Below are positions 30,001 to 33,000 of a stretch of DNA of 37,493 nucleotides, in pieces. Source of the DNA: a virus. Its lineage: Duplodnaviria > Heunggongvirae > Uroviricota > Caudoviricetes. Position numbers: made by a program. The stretch lies in the IMG/VR virus record IMGVR_UViG_2585427621_000010. One strand, given 5' to 3'. The number at the start of each line of letters is the position of its first letter. Position 1 is the stretch's first letter.

Positions 30001-33000
30001 GGTAGTGCATCCACCACCTGATTGCAGGCCGCCCACCAGGATAATTCAGCCAGCGATAATTCACGCTCCTGTGTGCCATTCATTGCGTGACGAATGACGT
30101 CAATCATCCATGCTGACAGGTTTTGGTGAGCAAGTTGCTCAAGTGATTCGGAGGTCTGGTCACGCAACTGGTTGTCGCAGTGCCAGCACAACACCATTGC
30201 GCCGGTACCATAACGGTGAATGACGGTTTCACTGTGGTGATAATCGCCGTGTGGCCACTGGCAGGATTTAACATGGCGCAGTAACCAGTCAGACAGTGCG
30301 CCAGCGCCACCAGCAGCACGAATCACTCGTTCGTCGCTGAAAAATGGCAGTAATGATTTATCCTCCGCCAGCGGCTGGCGAACGGCAGGAACGACCCCGG
30401 ACGGCAGATTACGCATGCTTTTCGGTTCCGGCTCCACCAGTACCCGGGTATTGTGGAATACCGGCATGGATTCACGGCCCGGCTTAACGATCACCAGCCC
30501 GAGTTCCGGTACCAGAACAGGTCGAAGTAATACCCGCACGTTACCTCCAGATGCGTTGCTGGAATGTGCGGGACGGACGCGGTGGGCGTTCGGAGTAAGG
30601 AAGCCTGACGGAGATTATCCAGTGACGATAATCGAGACTGAGGGCTTTCTTAACCTCGTATCCGCGCCTGCGGTAACACTGAATCAGCCATTCAGCCTGT
30701 TCTTCGGTGCAGGGGTCGTGCTGATACCAGTCAGATTTGAATGCATGAGAACGCCGCCCGTGCCTGCTGGCAGGGGCGGCAGAGTTATCCGAATTGTAAA
30801 ATTTGGTATCGTGCGCCATCTGTTTTCTCTGCTGGCGCAGCAGGTGCCAGTTGTTCAGGCTGACGGATGGATTGTAAACCAGAACGACCAGAAAAAACAA
30901 AACCCGCCGAAGCGGGTTAAGTGCGGGTGCGTTGAGGATGCCTGACACATCAGCGGTGGCGAGGGATTTCTCCCCCGCCTGGTCTCTTACTCCTCAGGTT
31001 CGTAAGCTGTGAAGACAGCGACCTCCGTCTGGCCGGTTCGGATTCGTACCTCGCAGAGGTCTTTCCTCGTTACCAGTGCCGTCACTATGACGGTTAAACA
31101 GATGACGATCAGGGCGATTAACATCGCCTTTTGCTGCTTCATAACCTGCTTCTCCTTGCCTTTCGGCGCGTAAGAGGCTAACCTACGTTTGTGAAGCATA
31201 GATTGGGCCTCAGATTAATGTTAAGCGTCTTGCAGGACGCGTAATGTTAACTGGGGCTTTTCTCTGTCTGCCTTACGGTGGCATGCCCGAGGCAGACAGC
31301 CTCAAGCACCCGCAGCAATTCTACTTAACTCTCGCTTTACAGCAAACCGTTTTGCCCGATATGGGAATTCCCATACGGAATGAATTCAGTTCCCCAGGCG
31401 CTCCATCAAAAACACAACCAGGCAGTAAACACCCACAACAGCAATAACAGCCAGAGCGCCTTCCATTACCAGTGAAATATCATCCGACATATTCCCTCCC
31501 TTGGTGTGAATCCCGGCGAACGTTTTTACCCCCACCGACAAATAACATATACTAGAAAAGCAATAGCTATAGCAACGCCTGCAAATGCATCTGGCCGGCT
31601 CATTGGTTCTCCCCCTGTGTCGCTTCTACTGCGATCTGACTGGCGTATTCGTTAATGGTAACGATAAGTTCTTGCTCGGCCTCATCCAGACAACTACCGA
31701 TACCTCGCCTGTCCACTTCAGAAGCATCGAAATCTGCACGAAGCCTGGCGACCTTCAGGATTGCGGACAACACCTCATCAGGGATTGCCGGAGAGTTGGT
31801 TGACGTTTCCGAGATTATCCGAAAATTATTGGTTGACGAACCCTTATTTTCCCGAAAGTTTCCAGCCTGAAGCATGGCGGCGCGGTGACACCAGATAATC
31901 CAGCCAAGCGCCATATCCCATGCCATGTATTCTCTATCGCCATTTTTTGCTCTGCGGCGATCTACAGATTCCCCGAAACGCTTCTCCATAAATAATTCAT
32001 AGGCTGCCCGTTCATCCGATACTGATGCCAGTGATGCCAGTGCAATTTTTAATGCGGTAAGCATGTTGTTTTGATCTTCATCGAGTCCGAACGGTATTTC
32101 ATCCCGTGATGACTCAATTCCGGTAATCGTGTTCTGTAGCCATTCTTTGGTTAATTCAGTCATTTTTCACTACCGCCCTTTCGGGCGGTCTCCTGATGTT
32201 CTGAGGGTGCAGGAATCCCTCCGGTTAAGGATTTAATAAAAATCATTTCTGATTTAAATTTTCAGTGTTTAGTTGTTGGTTTATAGCCTTTATGCTTCGG
32301 CCTTATTTCTCAGCCATACACAAACAGGACCATCTTCGGTGTCATGTATCGAACCGATAAACCATCCCTCACCTTCTGGTCGCTCAGGTTCCCATGCTGA
32401 AATATCAGGGCCATCTGCGTCCAGATTAAAATCATCTTCATCCATACTACGGATAGCCCACTGAAGATTATTTTTCTCCATCCAGGCGTTAAACTCTTCC
32501 GTTGAAATATATTCCCGACCATCACAGAATTTTTCATATTCAGGATGCGTCCAGCAGCCATATTCATTACGTTCCACTGGCATTTCTTTAATTACGCTCA
32601 TTTACCCCCCTTATTTAATTTTCTACGACACTTTTTACAATCATCTGGACTTTCGAATGTATCCGGCTCACGCTCATTGCCAAAATACATCCACCCACCG
32701 CAAATACTTGTTATTTCACCTTCAGCAAAATAATGATGTTTTTTCGCCATAAGTGACCTTGCCCAGCCCGGATTCGTTTTACTCACTTGTTGCCTCCTTT
32801 GCGAAGCTCTGCGACTAACTCGTCACATATGTGCGTCAAAGAGCAAAGTTTGATTGCTGGATGTTCGCGCACCATCTCCACACCCTGCGCCCGCAATTCT
32901 GCCAGAAAAGCGTAGGGGTCAGTTTTTTCACTGTGGTACATGGCATCATAGATAATCATTGCAGCGACACCTGCCTGTCCTGCATCTGTGACGGATATAT

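What the first reader, a model, noticed from the sequence alone, without database searches (positions are those of the whole stretch)
30987..31500. Hok-type toxin locus with a possible upstream frame, mRNA hairpins and a second small hydrophobic ORF
The 51-aa Hok peptide is unmistakable. The in-frame upstream extension (MLHKRRLASYAPKGKEKQV) resembles the mok arrangement. The leader contains a long hairpin (CTGTCTGCCTCGGGCATGCCACCGTAAGGCAGACAG) and a GGGAATTCCC palindrome, elements expected for hok mRNA folding or a Sok-like antisense RNA target. A separate 34-aa single-helix ORF with a strong RBS lies at 31490-31386. Whether the locus is an intact toxin-antitoxin pair or a decayed hokD-like remnant cannot be decided from sequence.
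Basis: partly seen in the sequence, partly recalled or inferred. Interest (0 to 1): 0.5.

Follow-up and report, generated by a model that had tools for sequence, protein, structure and literature searches.

The report
Intact prophage hok/mok/sok toxin-antitoxin locus
This is a complete, already-known kind of RNA-controlled toxin-antitoxin locus (hok/sok) in an E. coli O157:H7 prophage, not a decayed remnant; the 34-aa gene just upstream is a real, translated small membrane-protein gene of unknown function.

Summary
The window is the P-to-Q (nin) region of an E. coli O157:H7 lambdoid prophage. The 51-aa ORF is a Hok toxin (Pfam 82.9 bits) identical to K-12 HokD.

The locus keeps every regulatory element that K-12 hokD has lost:
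- its own promoter;
- the 5' tac element, which pairs with the 3' fbi element;
- the anti-SD box (ucb), the mok SD and an in-frame mok;
- the Sok promoter, with the same hexamers as the tested sokW, and a 5'-tail-plus-hairpin Sok RNA;
- the 3' protective stem-loop and the terminator.

Folding predicts the classic switch: closed full-length mRNA, open truncated mRNA and a metastable nascent hairpin. Covariation across 35 loci from four genera supports the fold. The locus is 92% identical to hokW-sokW of phage 933W/Sp5, which has been shown to work as a type I TA system.

Two corrections:
- The GGGAATTCCC palindrome lies upstream of the hok promoter, outside the hok mRNA.
- The Rfam "sok" hit is on the hok sense strand.

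The 34-aa ORF is conserved. Its Sakai paralogue (XECs145/ECs_5710) gives ribosome footprints. A diverged 30-aa homologue also sits directly upstream of hok in other prophages. Its function is unknown and it does not look like a type I toxin.

The parts
31318..31346 (-). hok promoter: -35 TTTGCT/TTGCTG (31346-31340), -10 TAGAAT (31323-31318)
   Evidence: Read directly from the sequence. The -10 hexamer and its distance to the mRNA 5' end are conserved in 933W, Tritos and PPompW copies. The scan tool finds the equivalent Tritos promoter, TTGGCG-17-TAGAAT. The TSS is inferred by homology and has not been mapped.
30895..31311 (-). Full-length hok mRNA (about 417 nt), 5' GGGUGCUUGAGG...
   Evidence: Rfam RF01794 covers 31311-31137 over the full model at 114.9 bits, against a gathering score of 59. 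MFE -174.9 kcal/mol, z -6.05, 0 of 100 shuffles fold as well. Covariation over 35 loci: 86% of cells paired against 37-47% for slid controls.
31300..31311 (-). tac (translational activator) element, GGGUGCUUGAGG
   Evidence: It pairs with fbi in the MFE and centroid structures of the full-length RNA. In the truncated RNA it pairs with ucb. In the nascent 30-mer it is sequestered in a metastable hairpin, -18.8 kcal/mol, z -5.0.
31264..31299 (-).
   Evidence: -21.2 kcal/mol, z -5.3. Compensatory G:C to A:U changes occur among copies (helix 2, 93% of cells paired, 3 pairs changed on both sides).
31251..31259 (-). ucb / anti-SD box, AAGCCCCAG
   Evidence: In the full-length fold it pairs with the mok SD region (31213-31207). 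In the truncated fold it pairs with tac. Helix 4 is 89% paired, with 6 pairs changed on both sides.
31205..31213 (-). mok Shine-Dalgarno region, CUGAGGCCC
   Evidence: Read from the sequence. It is sequestered by ucb in the full-length fold.
30987..31199 (-). mok reading frame (70 aa), in frame with hok
   Evidence: ORF list. The arrangement matches the annotated mokW and mokC. The mok-only part shows no codon-position bias among copies (8/7/7 variable sites), consistent with a purely regulatory frame.
30987..31142 (-). hok toxin gene (51 aa), identical in protein to K-12 HokD
   Evidence: Pfam PF01848 at 82.9 bits. PHROG 251, E 2.8e-33. PGAP annotates it 'type I toxin-antitoxin system toxin HokD'. 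The DNA matches K-12 hokD from the SD to the terminator apart from a few substitutions.
31156..31184 (+). sok promoter: -35 TTGCCT (31156-31161), 17-nt spacer, -10 TAACCT (31179-31184)
   Evidence: Read from the sequence. The hexamers are identical to those of 933W sokW. In that locus the -10 region was mutated to silence sokW (primer YO-421 and Fig. 1E legend, PMC8621323). It is too weak for the consensus scan.
31191..31263 (+). Sok-type antisense RNA (about 71-75 nt): single-stranded 5' tail, long hairpin, U-rich tail
   Evidence: It aligns with the annotated 71-nt sokW (window 31195-31261 aligns to sokW nt 5-71, 64 of 67 identical) and has a sokC-like 5' end. Fold -30.7 kcal/mol, z -4.74. 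It is complementary to the mok start codon and to the region upstream of it that includes the mok SD.
30958..30979 (-). 3' stem-loop that would end the truncated, active mRNA
   Evidence: A 9-bp GC-rich hairpin in both folds. Helix 6 is 97.6% paired, with 3 pairs changed on both sides.
30925..30937 (-). fbi (fold-back inhibitory) element, CCUCAACGCACCC
   Evidence: 12 bp plus one bulge with tac, -21.5 kcal/mol. The U:A pair at position 4 is replaced by C:G in 9 Photorhabdus/Pantoea loci.
30893..30918 (-). Intrinsic terminator of the hok mRNA
   Evidence: Terminator scan hit: 7-bp stem followed by TTTTGTTTTTT.
31386..31490 (-). 34-aa single-helix membrane-protein gene, unknown function, net charge -3
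   Evidence: PGAP CDS WP_001278460.1. Present with ORF25 in 673 of 5426 complete E. coli genomes. Variable sites by codon position are 6/3/11. Its Sakai Sp6 paralogue XECs145/ECs_5710 has RIBOseq RCV 4.35 and coverage 0.99 in LB (PMC5597208). A 30-aa homologue lies upstream of hok in Tritos-type prophages; dN/dS is about 0.36 in frame against 0.50 and 1.18 out of frame.
31357..31379 (.). Palindrome: perfect 16 bp at 31360-31375; perfect 22 bp CGATATGGGAATTCCCATATCG in most relatives. It lies between the ORF34 stop and the hok promoter.
   Evidence: The RNA hairpin is -16.1 kcal/mol here and -21.2 kcal/mol (z -4.9) in relatives, with no U-tract on either strand. PPompW phages keep it where ORF34 is truncated. 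933W and Tritos copies lack it.
31526..31603 (-). Unannotated 25-aa hydrophobic ORF whose ATG overlaps the stop of the upstream 187-aa gene (ATGA). It belongs to the upstream gene module, not to hok.
   Evidence: A 6-nt in-frame indel and 27-28-aa homologues occur in other contexts. tblastn finds it in 99 phage records, some without hok. dN/dS is 0.24 in frame.

Best explanation
The locus is a complete hok/mok/sok type I toxin-antitoxin cassette of the prophage hokD/hokW lineage. It sits in the P-to-Q (nin) region of an E. coli O157:H7 lambdoid prophage.

Inferred mechanism, by homology with R1 hok/sok and with the tested hokW-sokW:
1. A stable hok mRNA of about 417 nt is made from its own promoter.
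2. While nascent, its 5' tac element is held in a metastable hairpin.
3. When complete, tac pairs with the 3' fbi element and the anti-SD box (ucb) covers the mok SD. The mRNA can then be neither translated nor bound by Sok.
4. Slow 3' trimming back to the GC-rich stem-loop removes fbi. tac then pairs with ucb, which exposes the mok SD and the Sok target.
5. The short-lived Sok RNA of about 72 nt, made from a promoter inside the mok/hok junction, pairs across the mok start region. This blocks mok translation, and with it the coupled hok translation, and leads to duplex cleavage.
6. If Sok supply stops, Hok is made and damages the inner membrane.

In a prophage the likely roles are prophage retention, help with lysis and release after induction, or both, as reported for hokW-sokW.

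The 34-aa ORF directly upstream is a separate, real, translated small membrane-protein gene of unknown function. It travels with this hok lineage. It is not a type I toxin and is not needed for the hok cassette.

The palindrome between them is a stable hairpin or operator-like element outside the hok mRNA. Its role is unknown; it may mark a transcript boundary.
For: Identity:
- Pfam HOK_GEF 82.9 bits; PHROG 251; Rfam RF01794, full-length match, 114.9 bits.
- PGAP annotates hokD.
- 92% DNA identity to the annotated hokW/mokW/sokW of 933W over window 30915-31353.

Intactness:
- The alignment shows the promoter, tac, 5' stem, ucb, mok start, sok promoter, fbi and terminator all homologous to hokC/sokC and hokW/sokW. 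K-12 hokD matches only from about 31156 downstream.

Folding:
- In the full-length RNA, both the MFE and the centroid structure contain tac-fbi (z -6.05).
- The truncated RNA switches to tac-ucb.
- The nascent 30-mer forms a metastable hairpin (z -5.0).
- The Sok fold has z -4.74.

Covariation over 35 loci (Escherichia, Kluyvera, Photorhabdus, Pantoea and others):
- 86% of cells paired against 37-47% for slid controls.
- 25 pairs changed on both sides against 6-15 for slid controls.
- 0 of 500 shuffles reach the observed value.
- In tac-fbi, U:A is replaced by C:G and G:C by A:U.

Function of a near-identical locus:
- hokW is toxic and sokW neutralises it.
- sokW disappears and HokW appears after mitomycin C in a RecA-dependent way.
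- Deleting the locus halves Sp5 phage release (PMC8621323).

Element definitions follow PMC9841398.

ORF34.
Against: - Nothing about this copy has been measured. The TSSs, Sok expression, 3' processing and toxicity are all inferred.
- The Sok -10 hexamer (TAACCT) matches the consensus at only 3 of 6 positions and fails the promoter scan.
- The hok -35 hexamer is weak.
- The structure used for the covariation count was derived from this very sequence. That inflates the 'cells paired' measure relative to the slid controls (caveat stated).
- According to the introduction of bioRxiv 10.1101/2025.08.07.668861, chromosomal hok loci that were tested did not mediate post-segregational killing. The biological role here is therefore uncertain.
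- Natural IS insertions at the hok SD in three related contigs show that the toxin is dispensable.
Confidence: 0.9

Rival explanations
1. The locus is a decayed, hokD-like remnant, as in the K-12 Qin prophage: a toxin ORF without working regulation or antitoxin.
For: The Hok protein is identical to K-12 HokD, and PGAP names the gene hokD. K-12 hokD is a truncated locus in which relBE replaces the leader.
Against: Unlike K-12, this copy has the whole leader, mok, the sok promoter and the Sok hairpin. It gives a full-length Rfam match. Its predicted folding switch is complete.
Confidence: 0.03
2. The 34-aa ORF is a second type I toxin with its own antisense RNA, making this a tandem toxin locus.
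For: It is a small single-helix hydrophobic peptide with a strong SD next to a known type I toxin.
Against: - No antisense promoter or terminator, and no Rfam match, over 31386-31490.
- Its mRNA is not unusually structured (z 0.32).
- The peptide is acidic (net charge -3).
- Its Sakai paralogue is translated at RCV 4.35 in ordinary LB culture. A toxin kept silent would not be expected to show this.
Confidence: 0.05
3. The 34-aa/30-aa peptide is a functional partner of Hok, for example a membrane modulator, an immunity factor, or a cistron on a 5'-extended hok transcript. The linkage would then be selected rather than inherited by chance.
For: - Two homologues only about 54% identical both sit immediately upstream of hok: ORF34-type at 1465 places in 673 genomes and ORF30-type at 1804 places in 1635 genomes.
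- In nearly every contig found through either ORF, hok follows.
- In the Tritos type the stop codon is 45 nt from the hok mRNA 5' end with no terminator between.
- The pair appears in different genomic contexts: nin region versus a divergent intergenic site.
Against: - Many hok loci work without it: 933W hokW, hokC, and the Photorhabdus and Kluyvera loci.
- Recombination breakpoints fall inside the ORF in PPompW and L243.
- Shared ancestry plus homogenisation of the hok part among prophages could explain the pattern.
- There is no experimental link.
Confidence: 0.15
4. The 34-aa ORF is a chance ORF in an intergenic spacer.
For: It is short, has no Pfam, NCBIfam or PHROG family, and has only 6 cluster representatives among 1.84 billion proteins.
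Against: - The ORF, its SD and its stop position are preserved in 126 fetched copies; four of them have a stop two codons early.
- There is an excess of third-position changes.
- A diverged homologue keeps the helix and the C-terminal LM(D/E)RL motif.
- There are ribosome footprints, and it is annotated in Sakai as ECs_5710.
Confidence: 0.03

Closest known systems
hokW-mokW-sokW of Stx2 phage 933W / Sakai prophage Sp5 (AF125520; Takada et al. 2021, PMC8621323)
   Same: - 92% DNA identity over the whole cassette.
- The same tac, fbi, ucb and sok promoter hexamers.
- An in-frame 70-aa mok and a 51-aa Hok that is 92% identical.
- It is also prophage-borne.
   Different: - Hok C-terminus is TAYEPEE here and VDYESEK in 933W.
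- The first mok codons, the terminator and the genomic position differ: nin region here, next to the L0139-L0141 genes in 933W.
- 933W lacks the 173-bp ORF34-plus-palindrome segment. There the ORF25-family gene abuts the hok promoter.
hokD (relF) of the E. coli K-12 Qin prophage
   Same: Identical Hok protein. The DNA matches from the hok SD (about 31156) through fbi and the terminator apart from a few substitutions. The neighbours are the same: a DUF968/ydfU gene and the Q antiterminator downstream.
   Different: K-12 has relB-relE in place of the promoter, tac, ucb, mok start and sok. The window therefore shows the complete form of this allele.
hokC(gef)/mokC/sokC of the E. coli chromosome
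   Same: The same element order, an in-frame mokC, an annotated 59-nt SokC with a homologous 5' end, and a Hok 82% identical.
   Different: The Sok-target hairpin is about 18-20 nt shorter. The K-12 copy has IS186 just downstream and lacks fbi.
hok/sok (parB) of plasmid R1 and its IncF relatives
   Same: The same architecture and the same proposed folding pathway: tac/fbi, ucb, metastable hairpin, 3' processing, and Sok acting on mok (PMC9841398). The sok promoter is homologous: TTGCGC-17-TATCCT against TTGCCT-17-TAACCT.
   Different: The Hok proteins are only 39% identical. R1 hok/sok is a plasmid stabilisation system; this one is a prophage cassette.

Membership tests
[quoted passage not shown] | Hok/Gef-family membrane toxin ORF of about 50 aa | tested here: met
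   Pfam PF01848 at 82.9 bits against a cut-off of 22. The protein is identical to K-12 HokD.
[quoted passage not shown] | An overlapping upstream mok frame with its own SD, to which hok translation is coupled | tested here: met
   The frame and SD are present: ATG at 31199, GAGG at 31211-31208, a 70-aa frame sharing the hok stop, as in mokW and mokC. The coupling itself cannot be tested here.
[quoted passage not shown] | A cis-encoded antisense Sok RNA: promoter in the mok/hok junction, single-stranded 5' tail, hairpin-terminator | tested here: met
   The hexamers equal those of the tested sokW. The region aligns with annotated sokW and sokC. Fold z is -4.74. Expression has not been measured.
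[quoted passage not shown] | Long-range tac-fbi pairing that closes the full-length mRNA | tested here: met
   12 bp plus a bulge in the MFE and centroid structures. There are compensatory changes across genera.
[quoted passage not shown] | ucb (anti-SD) sequesters the mok SD in the full-length RNA; tac-ucb pairing forms after 3' truncation | tested here: met
   Both states are the predicted MFE structures of the 417-nt and 357-nt RNAs. The ucb helix is 89% paired, with 6 pairs changed on both sides. This is in silico evidence only.
[quoted passage not shown] | A metastable 5' hairpin in the nascent transcript | tested here: met
   The 30-nt 5' end folds to -18.8 kcal/mol, z -5.0, and sequesters tac.
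[quoted passage not shown] | Toxicity of Hok and its neutralisation by Sok | not testable with these tools
   Shown for hokW-sokW, which is 92% identical (PMC8621323). Not shown for this copy.
Type I toxin (considered for the 34-aa ORF) | An antisense or overlapping RNA antitoxin, and a structured, translationally closed mRNA | tested here: not met
   No antisense promoter, terminator or Rfam hit. mRNA z is 0.32. The paralogue is freely translated in LB.
Intrinsic terminator (considered for the palindrome) | A GC-rich hairpin followed by a U-tract | tested here: not met
   The hairpin is present (-16 to -21 kcal/mol). There is no U-run on either strand, and the terminator scan does not report it.

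The most novel reading that the evidence does not exclude
A family of 30-34-aa single-helix peptides (ORF34 here; an unannotated 30-aa homologue in about 30% of complete E. coli genomes) is a selected third component of prophage hok cassettes. It could be a membrane partner that tunes Hok action, or a cistron on a 5'-extended hok transcript. The 22-bp palindrome would then act as the RNA boundary between the two.
Probability: 0.15. Interest if true: 0.6.

Novelty: already known. Interest (0 to 1): 0.25.

Why it matters
The main result is a clarification. This prophage carries the complete form of the locus that K-12 keeps only as the truncated hokD/relF, and its sequence is enough to show that. 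RefSeq annotates only the toxin here, not mok or Sok.

The modest new leads are these:
- A small membrane-peptide family is persistently linked to prophage hok. One branch is unannotated in about 1600 complete E. coli genomes.
- An unannotated 25-28-aa ORF is translationally coupled to DUF551-type phage genes.

O157:H7 genomes listed carry 4-8 matching places each, and hokW affects Stx-phage release. Knowing which copies are intact is therefore useful for studies of cross-talk and of induction.

Tried and rejected
I used degenerate DNA patterns and tblastn instead.
- The profile of seven Hok proteins was too divergent for a genome scan. I used three close ones.
- phmmer of ORF34 against 1.84 billion proteins found only its own narrow family, 6 representatives.
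- Pfam, NCBIfam and PHROGs gave nothing for ORF34 or ORF25.
- A full-text search for the peptide or its WP accessions found nothing. The hit came from the supplement of PMC5597208.
- No sigma-70 consensus promoter was found for ORF34 or ORF25 on the - strand.
- A promoter-like site on the + strand at 31525-31553, antisense to ORF25, is not conserved in the 933W homologue. I treat it as chance; 0.4 such sites are expected in the scanned region.
- I looked for terminal inverted repeats around the 173-bp ORF34-plus-palindrome segment as a sign of a mini-transposon. None were found; only AAAACG direct repeats flank it.
- A search for small hydrophobic ORFs upstream of hok in other genera found none.
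- The hok and 3'UTR variability figures are distorted by copies carrying an IS insertion and were not used.
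Full report
**Context**

The 801 bases around the finding are 100% identical to many E. coli O157:H7 chromosomes. In strain PV15-279 the region lies in a lambdoid prophage. The locus is therefore in the nin-type region between P and Q.

**Checking the observation**

- hok is at 31142-30987 and scores 82.9 bits against Pfam HOK_GEF, cut-off 22.
- The upstream in-frame ATG at 31199 gives a 70-aa frame.
- The hairpin at 31299-31264 folds to -21.2 kcal/mol, z -5.3.
- GGGAATTCCC is the core of a perfect 16-bp palindrome at 31360-31375.
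- The 34-aa ORF at 31490-31386 has GGAGG six bases before its ATG.

Its ATG overlaps the stop of the 187-aa gene (ATGA).

**Intact or decayed?**

I aligned the locus with four references: 933W hokW/mokW/sokW (annotated in AF125520), K-12 hokC/mokC/sokC, K-12 hokD and an R1-type plasmid hok.

K-12 hokD matches the window only from about 31156 (the hok SD) down to the terminator. Upstream of that point K-12 has relE and relB.

The window is homologous to hokW and hokC over the whole cassette. The elements, with coordinates verified, are:
- promoter -10 TAGAAT (31323-31318);
- mRNA 5' end GGGUGCUUGAGG (tac, 31311-31300);
- the long stem (31299-31264);
- AAGCCCCAG (ucb, 31259-31251);
- the Sok-target stem-loop;
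- the mok SD and ATG;
- the hok SD;
- hok;
- a GC-rich 3' stem-loop (30979-30958);
- CCUCAACGCACCC (fbi, 30937-30925);
- a terminator (30918-30893).

On the other strand the sok promoter is TTGCCT-17-TAACCT (31156-31184). This is identical to sokW and homologous to the R1-type TTGCGC-17-TATCCT. Takada et al. silenced sokW by mutating exactly this -10 region (primer YO-421 and Fig. 1E legend).

The predicted Sok RNA starts at 31191, by alignment with annotated sokW and sokC. It has a single-stranded tail of roughly 9-12 nt, a long hairpin and a U-rich tail, and folds to -30.7 kcal/mol, z -4.74.

Rfam's 'sok' model (RF01794) matches over its full length at 114.9 bits. That match is on the hok strand and ends at the hok AUG, so it documents the conserved hok leader rather than the antisense RNA itself.

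**Folding**

The element definitions follow Le Rhun et al. (PMC9841398). The predictions reproduce the R1 model step by step.
- The 417-nt full-length RNA has MFE -174.9 kcal/mol, z -6.05. tac pairs with fbi (12 bp plus one bulge), and ucb pairs with the mok SD region.
- When the RNA is cut after the 3' stem-loop (357 nt), the MFE switches to tac paired with ucb. The mok SD region then pairs with the box just after the mok AUG.
- The first 30 nt alone form an 11-bp metastable hairpin that hides tac (z -5.0).

**Covariation**

A genome scan with a Hok profile returned 54 loci. They came from Escherichia, Shigella, Kluyvera, Pseudocitrobacter, Photorhabdus, Pantoea and Erwinia.

In each complete locus the 5' 13-mer finds its best partner about 45-56 nt after the hok stop. 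GGGUGC pairs with GCACCC in Escherichia and Kluyvera. GGGCGC pairs with GCGCCC in Photorhabdus and Pantoea. Copies with an IS just downstream lack the partner.

I projected the window's full-length structure onto a 35-sequence alignment and counted pairs.
- 86% of cells pair, against 37-47% when partners are slid.
- 25 of 67 pairs change on both sides, against 6-15 for slid controls.
- No shuffle out of 500 reaches the observed covariation score.

One caveat applies. The structure came from one of the aligned sequences, and MAFFT shifts the Photorhabdus fbi by one column because it lacks the bulge.

**Function by homology**

hokW-sokW of Sp5/933W is 92% identical in DNA over 30915-31353. It has been shown to be a working type I system (PMC8621323).
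- HokW arrests growth, and sokW from its own promoter prevents this.
- After mitomycin C, sokW disappears and HokW appears in the inner membrane in a RecA-dependent way.
- Deleting the locus halves phage release.

I therefore take the window's locus to be an active member of the same lineage. The steps above are inferred for this copy, not measured.

Three related contigs carry an insertion of about 1.1 kb at the hok SD. The toxin can therefore be lost.

**The palindrome**

It is not part of the hok mRNA. It lies 49-64 nt upstream of the mRNA 5' end, beyond the -35 hexamer.
- In most relatives it is a perfect 22-mer, CGATATGGGAATTCCCATATCG. The window has lost one A.
- As RNA it is a strong hairpin (-21.2 kcal/mol, z -4.9 in relatives; -16.1 kcal/mol here). 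No U-tract follows on either strand, so it is not a canonical terminator.
- It belongs to a 173-bp segment that 933W lacks. This segment (ORF34 plus palindrome, about 31348-31520) is flanked by AAAACG repeats.
- PPompW phages keep the palindrome and the last 15 nt of ORF34, while a paa/adfO gene replaces the rest.

Its role is open. It could be a transcript boundary or stabiliser, or a protein-binding site.

**The 34-aa ORF**

It is real.
- PGAP annotates it.
- The ORF25-ORF34 segment occurs at 1465 places in 673 of 5426 complete E. coli genomes.
- Among 126 fetched copies the frame, SD and stop are kept, apart from four copies with a stop two codons early. Variable sites fall 6/3/11 by codon position.
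- Hücker et al. 2017 list the Sakai Sp6 paralogue as XECs145. In LB its transcriptome RPKM is 79, translatome RPKM 346, RCV 4.35 and coverage 0.99. It is predicted to be an inner-membrane protein and was classed 'real'. It is now ECs_5710, directly upstream of the mok/hok gene ECs_1520. Reads may cross-map among paralogues.
- tblastn found a 30-aa homologue, MVLVLKCALAIAAVMAIYCLAVVLMDRLSD, about 54% identical, in phages Tritos, Evi and mEp460. It also occurs in 95 IMG/VR contigs. Its stop lies 45 nt before the hok mRNA 5' end in 91 of them. The three with a variant tac still have hok.
- That homologue is present and unannotated in 1635 of 5426 genomes.
- dN/dS between the two forms is about 0.36 in frame, against 0.50 and 1.18 in the other frames.

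It does not look like a type I toxin.
- Net charge is -3.
- The mRNA is unstructured (z 0.32).
- No antisense signals were found.
- It is freely translated in LB.

It is not required for hok. The 933W, hokC, Photorhabdus and Kluyvera loci lack it. Whether the persistent linkage is functional cannot be decided here.

**The 25-aa ORF**

It belongs to the upstream gene, not to hok.
- Homologues of 27-28 aa (MNWPEAFAITGVAMAIAFLVYVICRWG; MTWPEAFANVGTVMAVVLVVYSICRWR in 933W) always start at an ATGA overlap behind an AGGAGG-type SD inside the preceding gene. That gene is a DUF551-type gene, L0139 or the 187-aa protein.
- They occur in 99 phage records, including phages without hok next to them.
- They are unannotated there, and the sequence is absent from the protein collection.

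**Verdict**

This is an ordinary, already-described kind of system: a hok/mok/sok cassette of the hokD/hokW lineage, in its complete form. The residual interest lies in the linked small-peptide family, the unannotated ORF25 family and the palindrome.

Noticed in passing
window 31526-31603 (-): An unannotated 25-aa hydrophobic ORF whose ATG overlaps the stop of the upstream 187-aa gene (ATGA) behind a GGGGGAG SD. Homologues of 27-28 aa follow DUF551-type or L0139 genes in 99 phage records, some without hok. The sequence is absent from the 15-billion-protein collection.
   Followed up: partly
L133 895-987 (phage Tritos); E. coli genomes: A 30-aa homologue of ORF34 (GTG or ATG start, AGGAGG SD) ends 45 nt before the hok mRNA 5' end. 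It is present in 1635 of 5426 complete E. coli genomes and carries no annotation there.
   Followed up: partly
window about 31348-31520: Relative to 933W, the ORF34-plus-palindrome segment is a 173-bp insertion or deletion flanked by AAAACG direct repeats. No terminal inverted repeats were found.
   Followed up: partly
L028, L038, L061 (IMG/VR contigs); equivalent to window about 31151-31156: An insertion of about 1.1 kb with a 6-bp target duplication sits exactly at the hok Shine-Dalgarno / sok -35 region. These look like natural knock-outs of the toxin. The inserted element was not identified.
   Followed up: partly
window 30897-30978 (-): The hok 3' UTR (3' stem-loop, fbi, terminator) gives a sub-threshold match to Rfam isrK, a Salmonella Gifsy-1 prophage sRNA: 27.2 bits against a gathering score of 50, E 0.0013, full model length. 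This may reflect distant homology, or only a shared hairpin-terminator shape.
   Followed up: no
window 31137-31311 (-): The Rfam family named 'sok antitoxin' (RF01794) matches the hok sense strand and ends at the hok AUG. It models the hok leader, not the antisense RNA. Strand calls based on it will place 'Sok' on the wrong strand.
   Followed up: yes
window 31002-31004 (-), loop 30998-31006: The Hok Tyr47 codon lies in CUUACGAAC, a predicted 9-nt hairpin loop containing UACG. The introduction of bioRxiv 10.1101/2025.08.07.668861 describes TadA A-to-I editing of hokB, with a similar Tyr-to-Cys recoding in hokC, hokD and hokE.
   Followed up: no
window 31244-31447 (+): A 67-aa ORF antisense to the hok leader, hok promoter and ORF34. 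A homologue from another Sakai copy is listed as the translated sORF XECs166 in PMC5597208. This may reflect read-through of the Sok terminator, or Sok RNA contaminating the footprints.
   Followed up: no
window 31525-31553 (+): A promoter-like site, TTTACC-17-TATACT, antisense to ORF25. It is conserved in ORF34-type modules but not in the 933W homologue. I treat it as chance.
   Followed up: partly
window 24031-24147 (+), 27029-27201 (-), 27975-28221 (-): An ALIL frameshift pseudoknot (121.5 bits), implying an IS3-family element. The prophage sRNA STnc100 (100.8 bits). A cluster of three tRNAs (Ile, Arg, Arg) downstream of Q.
   Followed up: no
L239, L249, L255 (genome contigs): hok sequences 96-100% identical to the query Hok profile (first sequence: the window's Hok) occur on contigs labelled Veillonella parvula MAG, Acinetobacter idrijaensis and Xanthomonas pisi. 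Two of the three contigs are very short (275 and 431 bp), so contamination or mis-binning by E. coli DNA is likely.
   Followed up: no
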